A stretch of 64,000 nucleotides of DNA from a virus. Positions 252 through 40,067 of this stretch are shown piece after piece. Both the position numbers and the translations under genes were made by a program. The notes under the pieces are model-generated. The model had not been told where the DNA came from and did no database searches. It was given only the letters and a program-made list of their open reading frames with translations. The stretch lies in UHGV virus genome UHGV-0123226. One strand, given 5' to 3'. Position 1 is the stretch's first letter. Every line of letters begins with the position of its first letter.

Positions 252-632
252 CTATTTTTTTGAAGTAAATGTGTTTCCACAATTTTTGCAGTGCCATTGA
301 TTTTTCCCTTTTTTTCCAGCGAATCCAGCCAATGTACCCACGCCACCTGTTAAAATTGCACCACCTGCAGCTTTACCTACAGAAAAACTTTTACGGTTAT
401 TTTGCATAAATTCTACATTCATACTACGACATTTAGGACAGTGAACCCCGTTATGAAACATGGGTGCTTTTTTATCTTGTTTCTTATCGATTGTTTTTTT
501 TCTTTCTTCAGCTTTTTTGATTCTTTCTGGATCATTTTTCCATTCTTGGAACGAATCAATACTTTTCTCAGTAGCCTTTTTACTAACATCTAACGCTTTT
601 TTTCCAACTTCTTTCCAATCCATAACATACAC
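252..632 (-). CDS. small zinc-ribbon protein with a central glycine-zipper hydrophobic segment (host or prophage-border gene)
   Basis: CPKC...CKNCG tetracysteine zinc ribbon, GGAILTGGVGTLAGFAG GxxxG-rich segment, lysine-rich N-terminus. RBS-like site upstream. Confidence 0.55.
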   Translation of the reverse strand: MYVMDWKEVGKKALDVSKKATEKSIDSFQEWKNDPERIKKAEERKKTIDKKQDKKAPMFHNGVHCPKCRSMNVEFMQNNRKSFSVGKAAGGAILTGGVGTLAGFAGKKGKNQWHCKNCGNTFTSKK

Positions 633-706
633 TCCTGCTTATTAATTTAAGTCAATTCTATCACTTAATAAAGATTTTATAAAGAAAAGTATTATTTTAA
701 TAAAAC

Positions 707-730
707 GACCATACTTTGACCATACTTTTT
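707..730. repeat. tandem direct repeat GACCATACTTT x2 (candidate integrase arm-type sites)
   Basis: gaccatactttgaccatacttttt. The same 11-12-mer is tandemly repeated again at 908-931. Confidence 0.6.
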
Positions 731-864
731 ATGAAAAAGTGGAACTTGTCAGAAAAAATAAACTAAAGAAATACCGGTATTAAAGCGTCTAGAAAGAATT
801 AGAGTTCGTCAAAAAGTACAAAAATCATAACAGTAAAATAATTATATCGATTTTTAATAGGCTG

Positions 865-898
865 AAAACCTTGATGCTAAAGGTTTTTAGTCTTTTTT
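865..898 (+). terminator. intrinsic terminator-like hairpin
   Basis: aaaacctt-gatgct-aaggtttt followed by ttagtctttttt. Confidence 0.4.
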
Positions 899-907
899 AA
901 TTATATT

Positions 908-931
908 GACCATACTTTTGACCATACTTTT
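908..931. repeat. tandem direct repeat GACCATACTTTT x2 abutting the integrase stop codon (candidate arm-type Int binding sites, P' arm of attL)
   Basis: gaccatacttttgaccatactttt, identical motif to 707-730 and located 0 bp from the int stop. Confidence 0.6.
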
Positions 932-2157
932 CAAAAATTTAAATAGGCTGCAAATTTATCGGCAGACCTTTCTTTTTGTTTTTTAGTTACATGTGTGTAA
1001 ATATTCATTGTTGTGTGAATATCTGAATGTCCTAGTCTTTCCTGTACTTCTTTAACAGATAAGCCAGCTTCAAATAATAAACTACAATGTGTATGCCGAA
1101 ATCCGTGTATTGTAATGTCGTTAAAATCATATTCTTTACAGATACGAGACAAAACGGTATTTGGTCGGGTTATATCGATGTAGTTATTATTTTTAGAAGA
1201 AAAAATTATTTGTTCCTTTGTTTTAACATGTTGACCATGTATAAGTAAATATCTTTTTTGTTGAGTTTGCCAATCCCTCAAAGTATTAAGCGTTTCATCA
1301 TCCAGTGAAATTTTTCGGTTAGATGTATCTGTTTTAGGGGGCGTGGTGACTAATTTATTATCTGAATTTCTTACGACTGTTTTATTAATCTCAATCGTTT
1401 TATTAAAAAAATCCACATCATCCCAAGTTAAAGCTAAAGCTTCTCCTTTTCGCATTCCAGTAAAAGCTAGAATCCTGAATAAAGGATAAGTTAAAGGAAA
1501 TTTGTCTTTTTGGCAGCATTTAAGAAAATTTTGTAATTCTTCTTTTTCGAAGTACTTTATTTTATCTTTTTTACGTTTTCGATCACCTTTTGAAAAAGTC
1601 ACTTCTTTCATGGGATTATCTTTAATAAGCTTCATCTTTTTCGCATAATCAAAAACTGCAGATGTATAACTCTTTAAAGCTTTGTAGGTAGAATATTGCT
1701 CTTTCCATTTATTAATAGTTTCTTGGCAGTAAGCTATGTTATAGCTTTGGATTTTTTTATTTCCGAAATAAACTGAAATGTTTTTATCAAATAAAAACTT
1801 AACACGTAAATAGGTGCTTTCTCTTACCGTAGGTTTGTATTGTTCCATCCACATATCTTTTACCTGCGCAAAAGTATAACTAGTCTCTTTCAATAACTCT
1901 TTATCTGTAGCTAGAACTTCTAGTCTCGCAAGGGCAATTTTTGCCTCTTTCTGCGTTCGAAAACCTCTCTTAGTTGTATACCTCTTTTTTCCAGTTAATG
2001 GATCAATTCCAAGGTACGTCTTAAAATACCATGCTTTCTCCCCGTTTTTCTTTTGATACTGTTTTATCATTGCCATGTATAAAACCCCTTTCAAAAACTC
2101 ATGTTCGTCTACATTCAAAAAATTATAAGTACCTTTCCATTTCTGGAGGGAGACCAT
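931..2157 (-). CDS. int: tyrosine site-specific integrase
   Basis: 408 aa; C-terminal catalytic motifs (..HGFRHTH.., ..LGHSDIHTTMNIYTHV..) typical of phage tyrosine integrases; N-terminal arm-binding/SAM-like domain. Confidence 0.9.
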   Translation of the reverse strand: MVSLQKWKGTYNFLNVDEHEFLKGVLYMAMIKQYQKKNGEKAWYFKTYLGIDPLTGKKRYTTKRGFRTQKEAKIALARLEVLATDKELLKETSYTFAQVKDMWMEQYKPTVRESTYLRVKFLFDKNISVYFGNKKIQSYNIAYCQETINKWKEQYSTYKALKSYTSAVFDYAKKMKLIKDNPMKEVTFSKGDRKRKKDKIKYFEKEELQNFLKCCQKDKFPLTYPLFRILAFTGMRKGEALALTWDDVDFFNKTIEINKTVVRNSDNKLVTTPPKTDTSNRKISLDDETLNTLRDWQTQQKRYLLIHGQHVKTKEQIIFSSKNNNYIDITRPNTVLSRICKEYDFNDITIHGFRHTHCSLLFEAGLSVKEVQERLGHSDIHTTMNIYTHVTKKQKERSADKFAAYLNF

Positions 2158-2551
2158 AAAAGTTTAGTATGTCTTGTTTAGTCGGAATATACAACTCATT
2201 CATATGGGTGCCATCAATTCGAAGATAAGTAGAACCACAATTTGCTTGTGCTTCTATTTTTGAAGTCGAGCAAAAACTGTTTGCTGTCATTTTTGCCGTG
2301 TTTTCATCTGGATGAAAGACAGCATGAAATAACTCATGGCCGCAGACAAAATTTTGTTCATTATCATCTAATTCAGCATCTAAATGAATAAACTTTTGTC
2401 TACGGAATTTATTATAAAACCCATACACTTCATTCCCAAAATAGCCATAGAGAATAATGATTCCTTTTTTCTCGGCTATTTCAAACGGATCATTGGTTCC
2501 ATATTTCTGTTTTAATTCTTCAATAGCATAGGGTACATCAGATAAAAGCAT
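2123..2551 (-). CDS. ImmA/IrrE-family zinc metallopeptidase (anti-repressor protease of the XRE-ImmA pair)
   Basis: HELFHAVFH HExxH motif; located immediately downstream of the XRE repressor in the same operon. Confidence 0.8.
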   Translation of the reverse strand: MLLSDVPYAIEELKQKYGTNDPFEIAEKKGIIILYGYFGNEVYGFYNKFRRQKFIHLDAELDDNEQNFVCGHELFHAVFHPDENTAKMTANSFCSTSKIEAQANCGSTYLRIDGTHMNELYIPTKQDILNFYGLPPEMERYL

Positions 2552-2564
2552 GAGAAGACACCTC

Positions 2565-3008
2565 CTAATCTACCGTGGAATCATCACGATATTTTTTCGG
2601 AGTGAACTTTTTCTTCGCAAGAGCTTTGCCAATACGTAAAGATTCCTCTATAGAAGAAATAATAGCAGCGCGTGCTTCTGGAGATAGTTCTTCTGTGTCT
2701 TTTGAGAAAGCAATAGCTTCTGAATTACCCATGTCTTCAATAATTTTTTCTAATTCTTTTTGTATATCACGTTCGTCCTTCTCTGTTAAATCATAATAAC
2801 GACGTTTTTCGGTACGCCCTAGAAGATAGTCTGTCGACACATCGAAATAATCGGCTACTTTTTGAATCTTATCGATACCTGGAGTCCGTTCATCCCATTT
2901 TCTGATTGAGCTATTGGCAAAACCTAGTTTTCGTTCTAACTCAGCAAACGACATCTTTTTTTCATCAGATAACAATTTTATTCTTTGTACTAAACCCATT
3001 ATTATCAA
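2565..3008 (-). CDS. XRE-family HTH transcriptional repressor (CI-like)
   Basis: N-terminal HTH (FAELERKLGFANSSIRKWDERTPG), divergent from the cro-like gene; lysogeny switch position. Confidence 0.85.
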   Translation of the reverse strand: MIIMGLVQRIKLLSDEKKMSFAELERKLGFANSSIRKWDERTPGIDKIQKVADYFDVSTDYLLGRTEKRRYYDLTEKDERDIQKELEKIIEDMGNSEAIAFSKDTEELSPEARAAIISSIEESLRIGKALAKKKFTPKKYRDDSTVD

Positions 3009-5149: not shown

Positions 5150-5650
5150 ATGACGAGGAGGAAGATAGCCGTGGCAACACTTTATGAACTTAGCAACGAT
5201 TATTTAAAAGTTTTGTCATTAGCTGAAGAGCTTGATGATGGAACATTAAAAGATACGTTAGATAGTATTAGCGATTCAATCGATTTAAAAGTAGAAAACA
5301 CAGCAAAAGTAGTTAAAGAACTTGAGAGCAACATATCTATTGTTGAAAAAGAAATCAAACGGCTACAGTCACGAAAAACAACGCTTTCTAACAATGTAAA
5401 GAACCTAAAAGGATATCTGCAAGATGAAATGGAAAAGGTCGGCAAAACGAAAATCAAGGGCGAATTATTCAATGTAGGAATTCAAAACAATCCAGTTTCT
5501 GTGAATATTATAGACGAAAAATTAATTCCTATTGGCTTTTTAATTCCTCAACCTCCCAAAGTTGATAAAACAGCTTTGAAAGAAGAACTGAAACATGGGG
5601 AAATCAAAGGTGCAGAATTAGTTCAAACTAAGAGTTTGAGAATTAGATAG
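5150..5650 (+). CDS. Siphovirus Gp157-like protein
   Basis: 166-aa coiled-coil protein directly upstream of a Sak4-type ATPase, the conserved Gp157-Sak4 arrangement. Confidence 0.45.
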   Translation: MTRRKIAVATLYELSNDYLKVLSLAEELDDGTLKDTLDSISDSIDLKVENTAKVVKELESNISIVEKEIKRLQSRKTTLSNNVKNLKGYLQDEMEKVGKTKIKGELFNVGIQNNPVSVNIIDEKLIPIGFLIPQPPKVDKTALKEELKHGEIKGAELVQTKSLRIR

Positions 5651-5661
5651 GAGGTTTCAAT

Positions 5662-6678
5662 ATGGAAATAAAAAAGGCTAAACGCGAAAAAATAAAAGTT
5701 CCTATCATGATAACTGGCGCAAGTGGTAGTGGAAAAACAGTAAGTGCGTTGTTTATTGCTAAAGGAATTATTGAAAAAATGCATTCAGACTTATCAGAAC
5801 AAGAACAATGGGAAAAAATAGGTGTCATTGACACTGAGCACAAACGATCGTTGTTATATGCTGATTCAACCATTGGAAATGTCGACATAGGGGAATTTTT
5901 GCATATTGATTTTGAAGCACCATTTACTGTACAGCGATATATACAGGCTTTTAATTTATTCAAACAAGCTGGGGTTGAAGTGGTTATAGTCGATTCTCTA
6001 ACGCATGCTTGGAGTGGTGAAGGTGGCATTTTAGAACAAGTAGAAAACCATCAGAGAGGCAACTCTAAAAATCAAATGTTGGCTTGGAATAAAGTAAAAC
6101 CATTAGAGAAAGAATTTCTTAAGTTAGTAACAGGAAATTCAATGTATGTGATTGGAACGTCTAGAAGTAAGCAAGCCTACGACATGGAAAAAAATGAACA
6201 AGGTAAAACACAAGTAGTAAAACTAGGGTTGAAACCTGATCAAAAAGATAGTTTGGAATATGAATTTGCTATCGCTTTACGTATTGATCAGGACCACATA
6301 GCGGAAGCTACAAAAGATAACTCAAATATGTTTAATATGCCTTTTAAAATAACAAAAGAAGTAGGCGAAAAAATATATGAATGGAGTAGCGAAGGAATAG
6401 ATTTAGAAAAATTAAAAGATGAATTAATTAGTAGTATTACAGAACTTGCTACACAATCTGAAAATCATGAAAATATGTTTAAAGAGTTGCACAGCAAGAT
6501 TAACAACGTACCTTTAAAAAACGTAAAAACTAAAGTTCTTGAGCGTATGAAAGAAATGTTAGAAAAGATTGAAGTTCCTACTGTGGAACAACAAAGTGAA
6601 AACGAACTCGATGAAGAACAAACAGAATTATTTGACGAGGCAAATCCTCCGATTGCAAATGATTTTGAAAAGAAGTGA
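5662..6678 (+). CDS. Sak4-like (AAA_24) RecA-fold ATPase, ssDNA annealing/recombination
   Basis: Walker A GASGSGKT, Walker B VVIVDSLT; position in the recombination module. Confidence 0.7.
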   Translation: MEIKKAKREKIKVPIMITGASGSGKTVSALFIAKGIIEKMHSDLSEQEQWEKIGVIDTEHKRSLLYADSTIGNVDIGEFLHIDFEAPFTVQRYIQAFNLFKQAGVEVVIVDSLTHAWSGEGGILEQVENHQRGNSKNQMLAWNKVKPLEKEFLKLVTGNSMYVIGTSRSKQAYDMEKNEQGKTQVVKLGLKPDQKDSLEYEFAIALRIDQDHIAEATKDNSNMFNMPFKITKEVGEKIYEWSSEGIDLEKLKDELISSITELATQSENHENMFKELHSKINNVPLKNVKTKVLERMKEMLEKIEVPTVEQQSENELDEEQTELFDEANPPIANDFEKK

Positions 6679-34415: not shown

Positions 34416-35786
34416 TTGAAGAAACATTCTAGGAAAATAAAAAATAATAAAGAACTAACTTTACTGATTATAGGAATTTGGATTGTTTTTTTTCTTTTTA
34501 ATATGTATATGCCGACAGTGAGAGCTGATGACTTAGTTTACGTAAATAGATTAGATAAATTAGGATATTTGGGTGCTTCAATAGAACATTATAAAACATG
34601 GAGTTCAAGAGTTATTATTGAATTATTCTTGATGTTTTTTTCTAAACACCTTATGTTATGGAAATTATTAAATTCAACGATAATGACAGGTTCTATAGTA
34701 TTGCTTTGCAAATATGTTTTCAACAAGTTATATTCTAAAAATTTGCTACTAGTTTTTTCTATATTTTGTCTAATTCCTTTAACAATAATGGGGGAAACTG
34801 GTTGGATCGCTACTACGTTAAATTACCAATGGCCAGTAGCTTTTGGTTTGCTAGCTTTTTACCCTTTTTTTCAAGTGTTAAGCGGTAAAGAAATAAGCAA
34901 AAAAATATATTGTATAAGTATTCCTTTATTAATATTCTCTGCTAACCAAGAGCAAGTTAACGTATGCTTTTTTGTTTTAACTAGTCTAGTAAGTTTGTAT
35001 TTATTATTTAGAAGAAATTATAATTATAAGTTATCGGCGCTTTCCATAATAAGTTTAGTGGAATTATTTTTTTCTTTGACGGCCCCAGGGAACACATTGC
35101 GGGCTGCTCATGAAATTAATAAATGGTTTCCTGAATACAAAAAATTTAACTTTGTGAATAAATTAGACCTTGGTATATCATCATTTGGAAAACCGTTTTT
35201 TTTAGACACGAATATTTTATTTTTATTACTCTTTTTTATATTATTCTTTCTATCTTATAAGAAATGTCAGAACTATTATATACGTATATTAACCGCATTG
35301 CCGCTTTTTCTAAATTTGATTACTTTTTTCGGAAACACAATGGGACAAAGTTTTACTTATGTCAATGGAAATAAAAGATCAATGATTTGGAATAGCAACA
35401 ATCTGGGGAATATCTTTACAAGATTTGGAACTAAACTATCAATTTATCACCCTGGAACTTGGGTAGCTACTTTTATAGTTTTGGGATTATTATTATGTTT
35501 AATTATAGGAATTTATATAAGTTTTGATGATAAAAAATCTGCTGTTTTTTTAGTAGTGTTAATGATGATGGGTTTTTGTTCAAGATTAATTATGGGTTTT
35601 TCTCCTACTGTTTGGGCTTCAGGTATGCGAACGTACTATATACTTTTTATTGTCGTCGCTATAATAGTGTTAAAGGGAATTAACGAGATGAAGAAAAACA
35701 TGAGCTTGCAAAAGAAAGAACTATTATCATTTAGTTTAACTTTATTAGGTATCTGCACCTTAGTGTTAACGGTGCTGAATAGATAA
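34416..35786 (+). CDS. polytopic membrane protein moron (Wzy/EpsG-like polysaccharide polymerase or GT-C-like fold suspected)
   Basis: 456 aa, about 10-12 predicted TM helices, extremely T-rich coding sequence (GC well below the phage average); own TG-extended -10 (tggtatact) and RBS ggaaggag with TTG start; bracketed by two strong terminators. Confidence 0.6.
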   Translation: MKKHSRKIKNNKELTLLIIGIWIVFFLFNMYMPTVRADDLVYVNRLDKLGYLGASIEHYKTWSSRVIIELFLMFFSKHLMLWKLLNSTIMTGSIVLLCKYVFNKLYSKNLLLVFSIFCLIPLTIMGETGWIATTLNYQWPVAFGLLAFYPFFQVLSGKEISKKIYCISIPLLIFSANQEQVNVCFFVLTSLVSLYLLFRRNYNYKLSALSIISLVELFFSLTAPGNTLRAAHEINKWFPEYKKFNFVNKLDLGISSFGKPFFLDTNILFLLLFFILFFLSYKKCQNYYIRILTALPLFLNLITFFGNTMGQSFTYVNGNKRSMIWNSNNLGNIFTRFGTKLSIYHPGTWVATFIVLGLLLCLIIGIYISFDDKKSAVFLVVLMMMGFCSRLIMGFSPTVWASGMRTYYILFIVVAIIVLKGINEMKKNMSLQKKELLSFSLTLLGICTLVLTVLNR

Positions 35787-35791
35787 ATTAA

Positions 35792-35832
35792 AAGCTCTAC
35801 TTCTCAATCACGGGAAGTAGAGCTTTTTTTTG
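35792..35832 (+). terminator. Rho-independent terminator ending prophage A
   Basis: agctctacttc-(10-nt loop)-gaagtagagct perfect 11-bp stem plus T8. Confidence 0.8.
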
Positions 35833-36016
35833 TTTATTCGGTATGATTTATATATCTATTCGCTTGCCTTTTTTAATTTTTTGATGTAGATTTTATCTTG
35901 TTGTTATAGTCTATTTTGCTAATTTGAATTAAAATAATATTACGCAAACCCTTGTGAGTTCTAGTCTGTCTAAATATGGTGTTGCAGAAAAATTACACCG
36001 TGAAACTAAATAATTT

Positions 36017-36060
36017 ATTTGAATATAGCCTAGAATCCTTGCTTTATAAGGGTTCTAGGC
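36017..36060 (+). terminator. Rho-independent terminator in the inter-prophage junction
   Basis: agcctagaatcc...ggttctaggct stem plus T7. Confidence 0.6.
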
Positions 36061-36115
36061 TCTTTTTTTGTTGTTAGGAATTTACTGATTTAGTTATTGA
36101 TGTAGATTTGCTATT

Positions 36116-37297
36116 TTAAAAATTTACATAGCTACTGAAAGCATCTGTTGCTTCTTTAGTAACTTCATCAGAAACATGAGTGTAAGTATCCATAGTTATT
36201 TGTAAAGAAGAATGTCCTAAACGTTCTTGGATTATTTTAGACCTAACATTATCTGATTCGAATAATAATGTTGCGTGGGTATGCCGAAAACCATGACAAC
36301 CAATAGAATGTAAGTTAGCCTTTTCTGCCAATCTTTTGGAACGTTGGTAAATGTCTTGACTTCGGAACATGGTACCATCAATTTTTGTAAAAATGAGTTG
36401 TGTTTTAAACCCACCTTTTTTCATTAAAGCTTCACGCTGTCTAAGTTTCCATTTTTTTAAGATATAAGCAGTCTTGTCATCAAAAGAAATTTTACGAATA
36501 GAATTGGGAGTTTTAGGATCGTTTATAGTCAATCCATTTGTACTGATAGCAGTAGTTTTATTTATATTAACTACCTGCTTTTTTAAATCAATATCATTCC
36601 AATTCAATGCTAAAGCTTCACCAACACGTATACCAGTAAAAGAAAGTAAGCGAAAAATAGCACAGTCTAAGTCAGCATAGTATTTTAGAACTAAACTTTC
36701 TTCTTTGGCTTGATTGGCAATACTATCAGCTGTATTTAAGAAATGTTCCAGTTCGTCTTTTGTATAGAACTTTCTTTTTGTATTCTTTTCTATTTTCTTT
36801 AGCGAACTAGGCTTAGTTATTTTCTTAAATGGGTTTGAATCTATTATTTCTAAACCAACAGCATAGTCACAAACACGAGAAGCATAACTCAAAAGTACTT
36901 TTCCCATTTCATTCTTTTTATACCATTCATTAACAGATTTTTGCACGATCTTGACTGTTAAACGCTCAAGTCGCATTTTCCCAAATGTGGGTAAAATGTG
37001 TTTTTTCATACGTCGTTCAGTAGCTATGAATGTGGATTCCCTAACTGTTTTTTTGTATTCGTCCAACCACATATAATAAACTTCTTCAAAAGTGGTTAAA
37101 CGAGTATGCTCGTTAGCTAGGTTTCCATTATCAAAATCTAATTTTTTTTGATTAAGCTTGAGCTGTGCTTCTTTTTTTGTATTACAGTTTCTGATAGTGA
37201 CATTAATTTGTTTTCCAGTTAAATAATCTACGCCTAAATAGGCAGTTACTTTCCAGTATTTTTTTCCTTTTTTTGTATATTGTTTAAAAGTTGCCAT
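36116..37297 (-). CDS. int: tyrosine site-specific integrase
   Basis: 393 aa; catalytic region ...HGFRHTHATLLF...LGHSSLQITMDTYTHV. Confidence 0.9.
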   Translation of the reverse strand: MATFKQYTKKGKKYWKVTAYLGVDYLTGKQINVTIRNCNTKKEAQLKLNQKKLDFDNGNLANEHTRLTTFEEVYYMWLDEYKKTVRESTFIATERRMKKHILPTFGKMRLERLTVKIVQKSVNEWYKKNEMGKVLLSYASRVCDYAVGLEIIDSNPFKKITKPSSLKKIEKNTKRKFYTKDELEHFLNTADSIANQAKEESLVLKYYADLDCAIFRLLSFTGIRVGEALALNWNDIDLKKQVVNINKTTAISTNGLTINDPKTPNSIRKISFDDKTAYILKKWKLRQREALMKKGGFKTQLIFTKIDGTMFRSQDIYQRSKRLAEKANLHSIGCHGFRHTHATLLFESDNVRSKIIQERLGHSSLQITMDTYTHVSDEVTKEATDAFSSYVNF

Positions 37298-37418
37298 TGT
37301 TTATCCTTTCCACTTGGGCAAGCGAATAGAAGGAATGACAAATTTCTAGCACCTCCTTATTAGATTTTAAAGCCCCTAGCATGAATCGAACACGCTAGAA
37401 CTCACCAGAGAGGGGGAT

Positions 37419-38291
37419 TTATACTTCAATTAAATGGCTACCATCTGTTGGAGTTAACAATGCTTTTATCCCTTCATACAAACTCAAACAAAATGGAATT
37501 GCTGTCCAATAAAAAATAAAATATAGTAATCCTCTTTTAAATTTTTTAGCATAAAACCAATGAATTCCAAACATACCCAAGAATATTGCTAGTATCGAAA
37601 ATATAAATTTATTTACTATAACTTTATTAGTAAATGAGTTAGCTTCATTGTTCAAATTACTTATATTTTCTTCTTTCTCTAAGAATTGACTAATTTCAAC
37701 TTTAATATAAAATTTTCCAAATCCTTCTTTTATTATTGTTTCAACTTCAGTCGGTTCATTTAAAATAATTCCTGAATTTTTTGGTATATATCCTATCTTT
37801 CCACTTCTATTAATTTTTGCATTTTTTGGAGTAGGATGATTAGAATATACAGCTATAGCATTGGGATCATACTTATTATCAGGCTCTGGAACTAATGTTA
37901 AATTAAGATTGTGATAATGGTAACCGTACGTATTCCAAGTTTCTCCATTATCTTTTAAAACGTTTCTTAAAATTCGTTCAGCATCTGTATATTGAGTTCC
38001 TACTACTTCTACAATATAAGAGTTATTTGATTCATAGTTTTTGTTATTAACGTCATAATTAGTTTTATAATTCTCTTTATTTGAATTATTTATAGATGAT
38101 AAAGGATTAACTCCGAAAGTAGTTTTATTGTAAATTTTGTTATATGCTGCTTTTTTTGGATCTTTAATCCAACCAGTTCCTTTTTTACCATAACCAGGTA
38201 TCGTTGCTTTTTTAATAGATCTTTTGGCTTTACCTGTTGTTCTAGCTTTGATAGATTTTTTTATGCTTGGTTTTCTTGGTCCTATTTTCAT
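37419..38291 (-). CDS. HIRAN-domain protein fused to a C-terminal TM2 membrane domain, last gene of the cI-ImmA operon
   Basis: Lys-rich N-terminus; HIRAN hallmarks VVGTQY...LVPEPDNKYDPNAIAVYS...GKIGYIPK; TM2 hallmarks FLGMFGIHWFYAKKFKRGLLYFIFYW. Confidence 0.6.
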   Translation of the reverse strand: MKIGPRKPSIKKSIKARTTGKAKRSIKKATIPGYGKKGTGWIKDPKKAAYNKIYNKTTFGVNPLSSINNSNKENYKTNYDVNNKNYESNNSYIVEVVGTQYTDAERILRNVLKDNGETWNTYGYHYHNLNLTLVPEPDNKYDPNAIAVYSNHPTPKNAKINRSGKIGYIPKNSGIILNEPTEVETIIKEGFGKFYIKVEISQFLEKEENISNLNNEANSFTNKVIVNKFIFSILAIFLGMFGIHWFYAKKFKRGLLYFIFYWTAIPFCLSLYEGIKALLTPTDGSHLIEV

Positions 38292-38306
38292 TTTTATCCC
38301 TTCCTT

Positions 38307-38954
38307 CTATAAGCCCATTTTTACATAACTAATTAATTTTGTTGAATCATAGTTATATCTATATTGATTAATAGCTGATCTAGCTAAGCATGGATTTAAT
38401 AAAAATATTTTTGTTAAAAAATCATATAGCCTTACGTATAGTGCTGCAGCACTCATTTCAAATTCTTCGCAAATTTGACGGAAAGACATTCGTTTTCTTA
38501 AACATTCTTTCAATGCTTCATTGTTTATTAAAGCAAGGGATGCAAATATATTAGCTCTTATTTCTTTTGGTTCATCTTCGCTAGTGTATCCTTTTCCAGT
38601 AATTAAATCTGAAAAACTTTGAGACTTGCATTCCTTATTCATATCAAAAAAATAATGTGCAGATTCATGAAGTATTGAGAAATTTTGCCTTCCTTTAACC
38701 ATTGTTGAATTGTAGGAAATTCCGCATTTATCGTGAAATCTTATTATGTTTCCTGAAAATATTTTTCTTGAAACATCACCGAAACTATAGGGAATTATGT
38801 CAACATTTTCTACGTCAATCATATAATCTTTGTAGTGTTTCCATCTTAACTCTTTTAATTCAATTCCATAGTAATTGGCAACTTTTTCAATAATAATATA
38901 TGTCTGGTCATGATATTCAAAATAAGTATCGTAGTCTAAATACATAGGGGTCAT
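38307..38954 (-). CDS. ImmA/IrrE-family metallopeptidase
   Basis: HESAHYFFD HExxH motif; immediately downstream of the XRE repressor. Confidence 0.8.
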   Translation of the reverse strand: MTPMYLDYDTYFEYHDQTYIIIEKVANYYGIELKELRWKHYKDYMIDVENVDIIPYSFGDVSRKIFSGNIIRFHDKCGISYNSTMVKGRQNFSILHESAHYFFDMNKECKSQSFSDLITGKGYTSEDEPKEIRANIFASLALINNEALKECLRKRMSFRQICEEFEMSAAALYVRLYDFLTKIFLLNPCLARSAINQYRYNYDSTKLISYVKMGL

Positions 38955-38958
38955 CCAA

Positions 38959-39300
38959 TCATTTGTTTTTAAGTCTTGATTTCATGAATTCCAAGTACTC
39001 TTTTAATTCTTCCCTGAGCTGATCTTTTTCGGATTCGGTTAAATCTTCTGTATTTACACGGAAGAAAGTTGTAATTTCATCTTCCTCTAAGCTGTCAGAA
39101 TTTGGATTTTCAGTACGACCTAGTAGATAATCGGTAGTTACATCAAAATATTCAGCAACTTTTTCTAAGGTTTCTGCTTTAGGACTACTTTTTTTCCATG
39201 AATATATTGAGTTACGACTTAAATTCAATTTTTCTGCTAAATCAAATACGGACAATCCTTGTTTTTTTGCTAGATACGAAATCCTTTCAAATAAGGTCAT
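38959..39300 (-). CDS. XRE-family HTH repressor (CI-like)
   Basis: N-terminal HTH (ISYLAKKQGLSVFDLAEKLNLSRNSIYSWKK). Confidence 0.85.
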   Translation of the reverse strand: MTLFERISYLAKKQGLSVFDLAEKLNLSRNSIYSWKKSSPKAETLEKVAEYFDVTTDYLLGRTENPNSDSLEEDEITTFFRVNTEDLTESEKDQLREELKEYLEFMKSRLKNK

Positions 39301-39334
39301 TTTAGCATATTCTCCTTTGTTGAACAGTTATTTA

Positions 39335-39520
39335 ATACAAAACTTTTAACTTTTTTGTTTACAAATTAAAAGTTTTGTATTATCCTGTTCTTGTAAGTTA
39401 TTTAGATAGAAAAAAGCAAATTAAAAACACTACCTTTAAAGCATTAAGTTTGGCGACCGAGTGCAAAATAAAGGCTTTACTATGTTTTTTTCTATACACC
39501 GATAGTACAAAACTTTTAAC
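39335..39520. promoter_or_regulatory. operator repeats in the cI/cro intergenic region
   Basis: TACAAAACTTTTAACTTT at 39337-39354 and 39500-39517 (direct) and inverted aaagttttgta at 39371-39381. Confidence 0.5.
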
Positions 39521-39593
39521 TTTGTGTCAATAGTTTTGTAGTTTATTTTCTATCTAATTGACTTACTAAATACTAAAGAAAGGAGCATCGAAA

Positions 39594-39785
39594 ATGCCAG
39601 ATACATCAGTAAGCCGCCAAAAAATTCGTGATTACTTTGAAAGTAAGGGGATTTCTTTAGTCACTGTAGCAACATATTTTAACATTCCAAAACAGGACTT
39701 AAACGATTATCTTTCTGGAAAAAATCAAAGTAAAAAGGCTCACGAAACACTAACGGCTATTATTGAATACTACAAAATCAGATAG
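39594..39785 (+). CDS. Cro-like small regulator
   Basis: 63 aa, first rightward gene. Confidence 0.5.
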   Translation: MPDTSVSRQKIRDYFESKGISLVTVATYFNIPKQDLNDYLSGKNQSKKAHETLTAIIEYYKIR

Positions 39786-39788
39786 GAG

Positions 39789-40067
39789 GTGATAGTAATG
39801 GAAGTGATTTTAACTCCAGAAAATGAAGCTTCTCTAAGAGATTTTGTACACGGAATTATTGTTGATGAAATAGAAAAAGCACGAAGAGATACCGCAGTTG
39901 ATAAGCGAGTCTTAAATCAAACAGAGATTGCAAAATATTTCAATGTTTCCACAACAACAATAAGGGAATGGGAGAAGCTAGGGCTTCCGCATGGATCAGT
40001 AAGTAAACAAGGGAAGTTCTACGACAAAGAAGAGTGTCGCAGATGGCTTCTATCACAAAAAAGATAA
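39789..40067 (+). CDS. HTH DNA-binding protein (excisionase/MerR-like)
   Basis: LNQTEIAKYFNVSTTTIREWEKLGLPHG helix-turn-helix. Confidence 0.5.
   Translation: MIVMEVILTPENEASLRDFVHGIIVDEIEKARRDTAVDKRVLNQTEIAKYFNVSTTTIREWEKLGLPHGSVSKQGKFYDKEECRRWLLSQKR

What the first reader, a model, noticed from the sequence alone, without database searches (positions are those of the whole stretch)
37419..38291. HIRAN-TM2 fusion protein as terminal gene of the prophage B repressor operon, a candidate membrane-anchored DNA-end sensor for superinfection exclusion or abortive infection
The 290-aa protein combines a Lys-rich N-terminus, a HIRAN domain (VVGTQY...LVPEPDNKYDPNAIAVYS...GKIGYIP) and a C-terminal TM2 domain (FLGMFGIHWFYAKK...). 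HIRAN domains are known from eukaryotic HLTF/Rad5 to recognise ssDNA 3'-OH ends. It lies 15 bp downstream of the ImmA gene in the cI-ImmA operon, so it should be expressed in the lysogen. That is the classic location for prophage-encoded defence genes (compare sie, abi, rexAB). I know of no characterised HIRAN-TM2 defence system.
Basis: partly seen in the sequence, partly recalled or inferred. Interest (0 to 1): 0.7.

Follow-up and report, generated by a model that had tools for sequence, protein, structure and literature searches.

The report
Membrane-anchored HIRAN protein, prophage cargo gene
An Enterococcus prophage carries, in a swappable slot between its repressor/ImmA genes and its integrase, a three-part protein (a very conserved basic head, a DNA-end-binding HIRAN domain and a two-helix membrane anchor) that is a plausible but untested blocker of incoming phage DNA.

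Summary

Three points change the picture:
- **N-terminus.** The "Lys-rich N-terminus" is a discrete, near-invariant ~60-aa module. It has no Pfam or NCBIfam model. It heads over 1,000 protein clusters in prophages of Bacillota and Coriobacteriia, usually followed by membrane helices.
- **Position.** The gene is not terminal: the integrase follows 121 nt downstream. Near-identical flanks in two Enterococcus phages hold lipoprotein genes in this slot instead, so the gene is an exchangeable one-gene cassette.
[quoted passage not shown] Its slot-mates szaL and spaL modulate prophage activation.

All three modules are under purifying selection (dN/dS 0.03-0.14). The gene also occurs with a LexA-type repressor and a serine integrase, so it does not depend on ImmA.

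My best guess (0.35) is a cytoplasm-facing, membrane-tethered DNA 3'-end binder that excludes incoming phage DNA. Membrane topology and function remain untested. I class it as a new variant of a barely described kind.

The parts
37419..38291 (-). Complete CDS, 290 aa: N-module, HIRAN and TM2 protein
   Evidence: ORF list. A 100%-identical protein cluster P0001 has 53 member sequences. Whole-gene dN/dS is 0.19-0.20 against the E. ratti and E. faecium homologues.
38106..38291 (-). N-module, aa 1-62: very basic (net +18 over aa 1-66), near-invariant module MKxGxRKPSxKKSxKARTTGKxKRxxKKAxxPGYGKKGxGWxKxPKKAxYNKxYxKTT
   Evidence: PHROGs 10934, 3374, 29766 and 4721, E 1e-25 to 1e-32, all of unknown function. 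phmmer against 1.84e9 representatives gives 1255 hits, always at the extreme N-terminus. 21 invariant columns in 87 sequences. No Pfam or NCBIfam hit. dN/dS 0.03-0.09. AF2 with an 87-sequence MSA predicts helix 10-30, a PGYGKKGxG loop and helix 45-53, mean pLDDT 67.5.
38016..38105 (-). Linker 1, aa 63-92: Asn/Lys/Tyr-rich, poorly conserved
   Evidence: 33-34% aa identity to homologues, dN/dS about 0.95. pLDDT below 50.
37677..38015 (-). HIRAN domain, aa 93-205
37614..37676 (-). Linker 2, aa 206-226: acidic/Asn-rich, variable in length
   Evidence: Length-variable and gapped in alignment A1. dN/dS 0.66. pLDDT below 50 at aa 207-222.
37455..37613 (-). TM2 domain, aa 227-279: two transmembrane helices joined by the loop KKFKRG
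   Evidence: Pfam PF05154 above the gathering score. phrog_10680 E 5.8e-17. AF2 helices 228-248 and 253-279. The loop carries +2 to +4 and no acidic residue in all 17 family members. dN/dS 0.13-0.14.
37419..37454 (-). C-terminal tail, aa 280-290 (TPTDGSHLIEV, net -2), and stop codon
   Evidence: D283 and I288 are invariant.
38292..38306 (-). 15-nt spacer with ribosome-binding site (AAGGAAGGGA) between the ImmA stop and the ATG
   Evidence: Sequence read. No promoter-like or terminator-like site was called there.
38307..38954 (-). ImmA-type metalloprotease gene (Peptidase_M78), immediately upstream in the same operon
   Evidence: Pfam E 5.7e-13. phrog_1516 E 5.8e-85.
38959..39300 (-). cI/ImmR-type HTH repressor gene
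   Evidence: Pfam HTH_3 E 1e-8. phrog_8 transcriptional regulator.
36116..37297 (-). Tyrosine integrase, 121 nt downstream on the same strand
   Evidence: Pfam Phage_integrase E 6.7e-24 plus the SAM-like and arm-binding domains. 98% nt identity to E. faecalis phage Efs 1-1-1.
37366..37422 (-). Conserved left flank of the cargo slot. It contains a 9-bp stem-loop (37375..37399) followed by only three U
   Evidence: 94.8% identical to SEsuP-1 and part of the 98.2% match to Efs 1-1-1, both of which carry other cargo. The fold is not better than shuffles, z -0.5. No terminator was called.
39336..39530 (.). Switch region: three exact copies of TACAAAACTTTTAA (39336+, 39366-, 39506+) and a promoter-like site TTGACA-17-TACTAT (39530..39502, minus strand) that could drive the cI-ImmA-cargo transcript
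   Evidence: 4 matches against 0.33 expected; 3 exact, all in this intergenic region..

Best explanation
The gene is an accessory 'moron' cassette expressed in the lysogen from the cI-ImmA transcript. Its product sits in the cytoplasmic membrane through the C-terminal TM2 hairpin. The basic N-module and the HIRAN domain face the cytoplasm. HIRAN binds free DNA 3'-OH ends. Held at the inner face of the membrane, it would capture the leading end of DNA entering the cell from a superinfecting phage. That would keep the DNA from being circularised, ligated or replicated. This is superinfection exclusion at or just after DNA entry, without killing the cell. The N-module, which is very basic and extremely conserved, would add non-specific nucleic-acid affinity or dock the protein to a conserved host component.

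Shown: domain identities, modular purifying selection, cassette behaviour and the lysogeny-slot location.

Inferred: expression in the lysogen, cytoplasmic orientation, DNA-end binding and the exclusion phenotype.
For: - **Domains.** HIRAN and TM2 are real. The residues that HLTF uses for the 3'-OH pocket (N91, Y93, D94, N96; established knowledge) have counterparts N139, Y141, D142 and N144. N139 is invariant and D142 at least 90% conserved in the family.
- **Recurrent membrane anchoring.** HIRAN is joined to four unrelated anchors: a C-terminal TM2 hairpin (this family); the 'PP' hairpin of pneumococcal ThaL-like proteins, which has K/R-rich flanks on both sides; a DUF2628-like pair in the TPR-HIRAN proteins; and a six-helix N-terminus in P0048, whose last helix is followed by SKRVGKN. 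This points to selection for HIRAN at the membrane, on the cytoplasmic side.
- **Sister architectures.** In other members HIRAN is replaced by Cys4 zinc ribbons, which are typical cytoplasmic nucleic-acid binders.
- **Coupling to the lysogeny operon.** 15-nt gap with an RBS, same strand.
- **Fixed slot.** The repressor-(ImmA)-cargo-integrase order is found in E. faecium (6 contigs), E. ratti, E. durans and a metagenomic phage with an S24 repressor and a serine integrase.
- **Cassette exchange with conserved flanks.** SEsuP-1 and Efs 1-1-1 carry lipoproteins in the slot, in the manner of the Ltp exclusion protein. IPP16 carries AbiD in the same slot.
- **Composition and selection.** The gene has the lowest GC in the neighbourhood, 0.267 against 0.34. 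Each module is under purifying selection.
Against: - No experiment exists on any HIRAN-TM protein.
- The local positive-inside rule favours the opposite topology. The loop between the helices is +2 to +4 in all 17 members and the C-tail is acidic. Eukaryotic TM2D proteins have that loop in the cytosol (my knowledge). That topology would put HIRAN outside the cell.
- No known Sie protein works by binding DNA.
- The only functional data for slot-mates (SzaL, SpaL) concern prophage activation, not exclusion.
- No PADLOC or PHROG family with a defence annotation matches.
- The Pfam HIRAN match covers only profile positions 3-57 of 96. There is no sequence-level hit to PDB HIRAN chains.
Confidence: 0.35

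Rival explanations
1. Co-regulator of the prophage's own lysis-lysogeny decision. The membrane HIRAN protein would sense DNA 3' ends or ssDNA (from damage, replication stress or imported DNA). It would then tune excision, replication or the timing and size of the burst, as reported for the pneumococcal slot-mates SzaL and SpaL.
For: szaL and spaL occupy the equivalent position. Their disruption changes MMC and CSP responsiveness, density dependence and virion release. thaL was named in the same study as a lysogeny-module gene. The gene is co-transcribed with cI-ImmA by position. HIRAN recognises the kind of DNA structures that signal damage (established for HLTF).
Against: SEsuP-1 has essentially the same ImmA-cI-cro (85-91% nt identity) but no HIRAN gene, so the switch works without it. 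The gene occurs with three different regulator and integrase combinations. A membrane anchor has no obvious role in sensing chromosomal damage. thaL itself was not tested. I could not establish whether SzaL or SpaL share any module with this protein.
Confidence: 0.2
2. Single-protein abortive infection. HIRAN would detect phage DNA ends or replication intermediates and trigger the TM2 hairpins to oligomerise or insert. This would depolarise the membrane and kill or arrest the infected lysogen.
For: 'Sensor domain plus two TM helices' is the layout of several membrane-disrupting immune effectors, for example the CARF-TM effector Cap1 (abstract). The strongly positive loop would make constitutive insertion unfavourable, which fits triggered insertion (inference). 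AbiD occupies the same slot in IPP16.
Against: One DNA end binds one HIRAN, so there is no obvious route to oligomerisation. About a third of N-module proteins (49 of 145) are only N-module plus TM with no sensor domain. There is no similarity to known pore-forming effectors. No neighbouring antitoxin or immunity gene exists in the one-gene slot.
Confidence: 0.15
3. The protein guards against other incoming DNA rather than phage. It would intercept transforming ssDNA, which enters 3' end first through ComEC in Gram-positives, or other mobile DNA. That would prevent loss of the prophage by homologous recombination ('chromosomal curing').
For: The pneumococcal study frames lysogeny-module genes within a prophage-against-transformation arms race. 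A 3'-end binder at the membrane fits ssDNA uptake polarity (established knowledge). ThaL-like proteins are common in naturally competent streptococci.
Against: Enterococci, which host this subfamily, are not known to be naturally transformable (my knowledge). Conjugative ssDNA enters 5' end first. There are no data on thaL and transformation.
Confidence: 0.1
4. The N-terminal 226 residues are extracytoplasmic (loop-in topology, as in eukaryotic TM2D proteins). The HIRAN-like domain would then have a surface role unrelated to intracellular DNA ends, for example binding extracellular DNA or cell-wall polymers, or blocking a receptor.
For: A positive loop and acidic C-tail are found in every family member. 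The same pattern occurs in other TM2-type members whose C-terminal extensions are Thr/Glu/Ser-rich like cell-wall-spanning linkers (P0114, P0040). The pneumococcal authors call two slot-mates 'surface-exposed'. Other cargo in this slot is extracellular lipoprotein.
Against: There is no signal peptide. The first 66 residues carry +18 net charge, which makes N-tail export very unlikely (established membrane-protein biogenesis). Cys4 zinc ribbons occupy the same position in sister proteins. P0048 and the ThaL-type anchors place HIRAN on the cytoplasmic side.
Confidence: 0.1

Closest known systems
[quoted passage not shown] The same kind is annotated 'HIRAN domain protein' in phages phiARI0995b, 23782 and 11865.
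   Same: Same slot (HTH repressor - ImmA/DUF955 - gene - integrase). Same N-module (70% identity over aa 1-64). HIRAN domain and membrane helices are present. No function tested.
   Different: The domain order is N-module - hairpin - HIRAN rather than N-module - HIRAN - TM2. The anchor is a 'PP' hairpin with basic flanks, not a Pfam TM2 domain. Outside the N-module the two proteins do not align by tblastn. Hosts are Streptococcus rather than Enterococcus.
Superinfection-exclusion proteins encoded between integrase and repressor in Gram-positive temperate phages (Sie2009 of lactococcal Tuc2009, Ltp of S. thermophilus TP-J34) - from my knowledge
   Same: Same genomic slot, lysogen expression, membrane association and single-gene cassette. 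Related Enterococcus phages carry lipoproteins in exactly this slot.
   Different: No sequence similarity was found (PHROG hits are all 'unknown function'). Known Sie proteins act on the injection machinery or tape measure, not through a DNA-binding domain. No phenotype is known here.
SzaL / SpaL lysogeny-module proteins of pneumococcal prophages (PMC12637031)
   Same: Accessory genes in the lysogeny module next to ImmA/ImmR. They are the only genes of this slot with experimental data.
   Different: They are described as surface-exposed zinc (metallo)proteins, with no HIRAN. Their phenotype is modulation of prophage activation. Whether they carry the N-module is unknown to me.
PADLOC candidate system PDC-M03 (HipA kinase + HIRAN protein) / HipA-HIRAN toxin-antitoxin pairs
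   Same: It contains a stand-alone HIRAN protein. There is a weak HMM match to PDC-M03B (E 0.0017).
   Different: There is no HipA gene here. The slot holds one gene. The match is only to the HIRAN core. PDC-M03B proteins have no TM2 or N-module as far as the profile match shows.
HIRAN domains with solved structures: human HLTF (4xzg) and L. plantarum lp_0118 (3k2y)
   Different: This family has its own conserved insertion (YPTPKNAKIxRSGK, aa 149-165) and an N-terminal helix (TDAERILRNV). R71 of HLTF is Gln or Tyr here. It is fused to a membrane anchor rather than a SNF2 motor.

Membership tests
HIRAN domain (Pfam PF08797) | HMM score at or above Pfam's gathering threshold | tested here: met
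   33.1 bits against 24.7, E 5.1e-8, aa 91-172, profile positions 3-57 of 96. 14 of 87 N-module proteins also match.
HIRAN domain (Pfam PF08797) | HIRAN fold | tested here: met
HIRAN domain (Pfam PF08797) | Conserved 3'-OH pocket motif (N-x-Y-D-x-N-A-I in HLTF) | tested here: met
   hhalign pairs PEPDNKYDPNAIAVY with HLTF RDPNNPYDKNAIKVN (HLTF sequence from memory). N139 is invariant. D142, A145 and I146 are at least 90% conserved. Y141 is replaced by His in a few members.
HIRAN domain (Pfam PF08797) | Binds ssDNA or frayed-duplex 3'-OH ends | not testable with these tools
   Needs EMSA or anisotropy with purified aa 90-210.
TM2 domain (Pfam PF05154) | HMM score at or above the gathering threshold; two TM helices joined by a short linker | tested here: met
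   38.8 bits against 27.9, aa 227-275, profile positions 4-51 of 51. AF2 helices 228-248 and 253-279.
TM2 domain (Pfam PF05154) | Membrane topology (which side the loop faces) | tested here: inconclusive
   The loop is +2 to +4 and the C-tail acidic, which favours loop-in. The absence of a signal peptide, the +18 N-module and cytoplasmic-type sister domains favour N-in.
ThaL-type transmembrane HIRAN lysogeny proteins | HIRAN domain plus TM helices, encoded in the lysogeny module between regulator and integrase | tested here: met
ThaL-type transmembrane HIRAN lysogeny proteins | Orthology: same domain order and alignable full length | tested here: not met
   Only aa 1-64 align to the pneumococcal proteins. 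The order is N-TM-HIRAN there and N-HIRAN-TM2 here.
Sie-type superinfection exclusion (Sie2009 / Ltp) | Lysogen-expressed membrane or surface protein encoded between repressor and integrase | tested here: met
   Position and coupling. Predicted TM hairpin. Expression is inferred, not measured.
Sie-type superinfection exclusion (Sie2009 / Ltp) | Sequence homology to a characterised Sie protein | tested here: not met
   All PHROG hits are of unknown function. PADLOC has no Sie-like match.
Sie-type superinfection exclusion (Sie2009 / Ltp) | Blocks DNA entry of superinfecting phage without affecting adsorption | not testable with these tools
   Needs phage challenge, adsorption and DNA-entry assays.
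PADLOC PDC-M03 (HipA + HIRAN) | HIRAN protein adjacent to a HipA-family kinase | tested here: not met
   Weak PDC-M03B hit, E 0.0017. The neighbours are ImmA and integrase. The composition of PDC-M03 is taken from PMC13245101.
ImmR/ImmA regulatory module (as an obligate third component) | Always co-occurs with ImmA and ImmR | tested here: not met
   P0014 sits between an HTH+Peptidase_S24 repressor and a serine recombinase. SEsuP-1 has the same ImmA-cI without the gene. Prophage A in this window has cI-ImmA-int with nothing in between.

The most novel reading that the evidence does not exclude
Prophages of Gram-positive bacteria deploy a family of membrane-tethered DNA 3'-end receptors. These would catch the leading end of any DNA crossing the membrane, whether a phage genome or transforming ssDNA. 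That would be the first exclusion mechanism working by direct capture of the invader's DNA end rather than by blocking receptors or the injection machinery. The ~60-aa N-module would be a pan-Bacillota prophage 'adaptor' that docks diverse cargo domains (HIRAN, zinc ribbons, TPR and others) to one highly conserved host target at the inner face of the membrane.
Probability: 0.2. Interest if true: 0.8.

Novelty: new variant of a known kind. Interest (0 to 1): 0.55.

Why it matters
If HIRAN really works here as a membrane-held DNA-end trap, it would add a mechanistically new class to superinfection exclusion. It would also give a bacterial function to a domain known mainly from eukaryotic fork remodelling.

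The N-module matters independently. It is among the most conserved sequences in Gram-positive temperate phages: over 1,000 clusters at 65-92% identity across phyla. It has no database model and no known function, and it heads a hypervariable set of membrane proteins in lysogeny modules. Finding its partner would explain a whole class of prophage genes.

The precisely delimited one-gene slot, with known alternative cargos, offers a clean genetic system. Cassettes can be swapped in an isogenic prophage and exclusion, induction and fitness compared.

Tried and rejected
- **Family libraries.** NCBIfam has no family for the protein. PADLOC gave only a sub-threshold HIRAN hit, so I rejected membership of PDC-M03 for lack of HipA.
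- **RNA elements.** An Rfam scan of 35700-39800 found nothing in or next to the gene. The ctRNA_pT181 feature annotated after the pneumococcal HIRAN gene has no counterpart here. The stem-loop after the stop codon is not better than shuffles and lacks a U-run, so I do not call it a terminator.
- **N-module.** Pfam at E up to 10 gave only noise (Protamine_3 and Csx1_CARF at E about 0.1). Its helix 10-30 is only weakly amphipathic (muH 0.23), so I dropped the idea that it is a membrane-surface helix.
- **Context survey of 80 genome loci.** My home-made integrase, ImmA and cI HMMs were too insensitive. The counts (17 of 57 with an integrase downstream, 17 of 62 with a repressor upstream) are lower bounds only.
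- **Literature.** Most hits for 'HIRAN' with 'anti-phage' were the author name Hirano. Searches for TM2 domain with phage or prophage gave nothing functional.
- **Obligate ImmA partner.** Considered and rejected.
Full report

**2. Gene neighbourhood.** The order on the minus strand is:
- HTH_3 repressor (38959..39300)
- Peptidase_M78/ImmA (38307..38954)
- the HIRAN-TM2 gene
- a tyrosine integrase (36116..37297)

The gap to ImmA is 15 nt and contains AAGGAAGGGA. The integrase follows after 121 nt on the same strand, so the gene is not the terminal gene of that strand. The only structure in between is a 9-bp stem-loop (37375..37399) without a U-tract. It is not better than shuffled sequence. The rest of the element is a normal siphovirus-type prophage, with helicase, RecE-like exonuclease, polymerase, primase, terminase, portal, major head protein and tape measure. 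It lies in tandem after another prophage that ends with a GH25-LysM endolysin and a DUF6056 membrane protein.

**3. The protein has three modules, not two.** Residues 1-~62 match four PHROG families of unknown function at E 1e-25 to 1e-32, and these families differ in everything downstream.
- **Abundance.** A phmmer search with aa 1-66 against 1.84 billion cluster representatives found 1255 proteins (789 at E <= 1e-10). The match is always at the extreme N-terminus, at 65-92% identity among the 150 best hits, in proteins of 78-505 aa.
- **Conservation.** In 87 aligned members 21 columns are invariant and 18 more are at least 90% conserved. They include PGYGKKGxG and YNKxYxKT(T).
- **No database model.** No Pfam or NCBIfam model covers the module, even at E 10.
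- **Predicted structure.** With a deep alignment AF2 predicts a basic helix (10-30), the glycine-rich loop and a short helix (45-53) at modest confidence.
- **Usual architecture.** Of 145 module-bearing proteins, 123 have a hydrophobic membrane region, usually within 80 residues of the module. 49 are only module plus TM. 56 carry a further C-terminal domain of at least 60 aa. 18, like this one, have a domain between the module and the TM region.
- **Domains found with it.** TM2, HIRAN, TPR, several zinc ribbons and Ada-type zinc binding.
- **Taxonomic spread.** In species-representative genomes at least 478 loci encode it. They span Enterococcus, Streptococcus, many Clostridia, Erysipelotrichales and Coriobacteriia (Collinsella, Slackia), plus single Saccharibacteria and Coprothermobacterota MAGs.
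- **Stand-alone form.** Many Clostridia have it as a 66-aa ORF ending ...FSI[FW]DLFK. So do phiEf11 (PHIEF11_0033) and Paenibacillus phage Diva.

**4. All three modules are functional.** I compared the gene with its E. ratti, E. faecium and E. durans homologues (70-74% aa identity). dN/dS is 0.03-0.09 for the N-module, 0.09-0.10 for HIRAN and 0.13-0.14 for TM2. The two linkers run at 0.66-0.95. Conservation is therefore at the protein level and module by module.

**5. The gene is an exchangeable cassette.**
- E. faecalis phage Efs 1-1-1 is 98.2% identical to window 36000..37422. This covers the integrase and the whole intergenic region and stops at the stop codon of the HIRAN-TM2 gene. Its slot holds two lipoprotein genes (109 aa, and 250 aa with LysM), and its ImmA and cI differ.
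- Phage SEsuP-1 matches window 38306..39789, starting at the ImmA stop codon and running through cI and cro. It also matches the 58 nt at 37366..37422. Its slot again holds a LysM lipoprotein and a small lipoprotein.
- The E. ratti and E. faecium genes are 75% identical in nucleotides over 37443..38291 but sit between unrelated ImmA and integrase genes.

The slot 37423..38305 thus holds exactly one gene plus its RBS, and it recombines independently of both flanks. The gene's GC content (0.267) is the lowest in the neighbourhood.

**6. The same slot is used elsewhere.**
- Six E. faecium contigs, E. ratti and E. durans have HTH - M78 - HIRAN/TM2 - integrase.
- A shorter form without the N-module lies directly upstream of an integrase.
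- Another lies between an HTH+Peptidase_S24 (LexA-like) repressor and a large serine recombinase.
- Pneumococcal phages have HTH_26 - DUF955 - 'HIRAN domain protein' - integrase.
- S. mitis SM1 gp2 and pneumococcal IPP16 have N-module+TM proteins after the repressor. IPP16 also carries AbiD (PADLOC E 2.9e-56) in the slot.
- Prophage A of this window has nothing between ImmA and integrase.

The gene is therefore independent of the type of repressor and integrase and is dispensable for the switch. It shares its slot with a known Abi gene and with Ltp-style lipoproteins. This is the pattern of an accessory gene expressed in the lysogen.

**7. Membrane-anchored HIRAN is recurrent.** HIRAN domains in this protein set are attached to at least four different anchors:
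- a C-terminal TM2 hairpin (this family)
- a 'PP' hairpin with basic flanks on both sides (pneumococcal ThaL type)
- a DUF2628-like pair followed by TPR and HIRAN
- a six-helix N-terminal domain in P0048, whose HIRAN is closest to the one here and follows SKRVGKN after the last helix

The last three are most simply read as placing HIRAN in the cytoplasm. This convergence suggests that a DNA-end binder at the inner face of the membrane is what selection favours.

**8. Topology is the weak point.** In all 17 HIRAN-TM2 family members the loop between the helices carries +2 to +4 and no acidic residue, and the C-tail is neutral to acidic. The same holds for TM2-type hairpins in zinc-ribbon and Ada-Zn members, whose C-terminal extensions are acidic and Thr/Ser-rich. 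By the positive-inside rule the loop would be cytoplasmic and both termini outside, as in eukaryotic TM2D proteins (my knowledge). Several facts argue the other way:
- There is no signal peptide.
- The first 66 residues carry net +18.
- A folded 110-residue domain precedes the first helix.
- Sister proteins have Cys4 zinc ribbons in that position.

I estimate about two-thirds probability for a cytoplasmic HIRAN. Only experiment can settle it.

**9. [quoted passage not shown] In the same study, genes at the equivalent place in two other prophages (szaL, spaL) alter responsiveness to mitomycin C and competence peptide, density dependence and virion release. The authors call them co-regulators. 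GenBank records have annotated 'HIRAN domain protein' in pneumococcal phages for years. PADLOC's only HIRAN-containing entry is the candidate PDC-M03 (HipA + HIRAN), which does not apply here. I found nothing on TM2 domains in phage biology. No phage record among 50,697 contains a full-length relative of this protein. The HIRAN-TM2 architecture is thus an undescribed variant of a kind that has been named but not studied.

**10. Mechanism.** The reading I favour (0.35) is this. The protein is made in the lysogen from the cI-ImmA transcript and anchored by TM2, with the N-module and HIRAN in the cytoplasm. It binds the 3'-OH end of DNA arriving through the membrane and prevents its establishment, which is superinfection exclusion. 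The rivals are:
- a co-regulator of the prophage's own activation (0.2), supported by the szaL and spaL data but weakened by the cassette behaviour
- a one-protein abortive-infection pore (0.15)
- interception of transforming or other mobile DNA (0.1), more plausible for streptococcal ThaL than for Enterococcus
- an extracytoplasmic role (0.1)

None can be excluded by computation. The experiments that would discriminate are listed under next steps.

**11. Verdict.** The finding is real and its domain calls are right. The analysis adds three things: the N-module family, the exact cassette boundaries with alternative cargos, and the recurrence of membrane-anchored HIRAN. I score interest at 0.55 and class it as a new variant of a known, barely characterised kind.

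Noticed in passing
window 38106..38291 (-); also L012:3501-3701, L013:3501-3704, L021/L023 and others 6001-6201, L046:6001-6201: The ~60-aa basic N-module is an unannotated, extremely conserved family with no Pfam or NCBIfam model. It has over 1,000 cluster representatives and at least 478 species-level loci across Bacillota and Coriobacteriia. It occurs fused to TM regions and varied domains. It also occurs as a stand-alone 66-aa ORF ending FSI[FW]DLFK. In L046 it is a 66-aa ORF overlapping the start of a 360-aa membrane protein (a split form). Its function is unknown.
   Followed up: partly
window 37423..38305; L101:1356-2563; L102:1478-2572: The slot between ImmA and integrase has conserved flanks. 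In phages SEsuP-1 and Efs 1-1-1 it holds two lipoprotein genes (a LysM lipoprotein of 250-287 aa and a 109-aa lipoprotein) instead of the HIRAN-TM2 gene. Homology breaks exactly at the ImmA stop codon and at the cargo gene's stop codon.
   Followed up: yes
window 37366..37422 (-): A 58-nt segment just downstream of the cargo gene is conserved (94.8-98%) in phages with different cargo. It contains a 9-bp stem-loop (37375..37399). It may be a regulatory or recombination-boundary element upstream of int. It is not a canonical terminator.
   Followed up: partly
window 39336..39519: Three exact copies of TACAAAACTTTTAA (two direct, one inverted) lie in the cI-cro intergenic region. They are likely operator half-sites. 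The only other near-match in the 64 kb is at 5204 with one mismatch.
   Followed up: partly
window 34416..35786 (+) and 35791..35863: A 456-aa polytopic DUF6056 membrane protein (GC 0.284) lies after the endolysin at the end of prophage A. It may be a lysogenic-conversion gene. Its terminator region gives a sub-threshold Rfam hit to Enterococcus sRNA RefA9 on the minus strand (31.3 bits against a gathering score of 49).
   Followed up: no
window 252..3008 (-): Prophage A has cI (2565..3008), ImmA (2123..2551) and integrase (931..2157) with ImmA and int overlapping and no cargo gene between them. A phage-type zinc-finger protein (252..632, phrog_6837 E 3e-56) lies beyond the integrase.
   Followed up: no
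L096:4441-5639: A HIRAN-TM2 relative with a degenerate HIRAN motif (P0019; Pfam detects only TM2) sits next to a pyrimidine-dimer DNA glycosylase gene (Pyr_excise) beside ordinary host genes, not in a recognisable lysogeny module.
   Followed up: no
L001:4906-5008: The pneumococcal phage record annotates a ctRNA_pT181-like antisense RNA overlapping the 3' end of its HIRAN gene, before the integrase. No Rfam match exists at the corresponding place in this window.
   Followed up: partly
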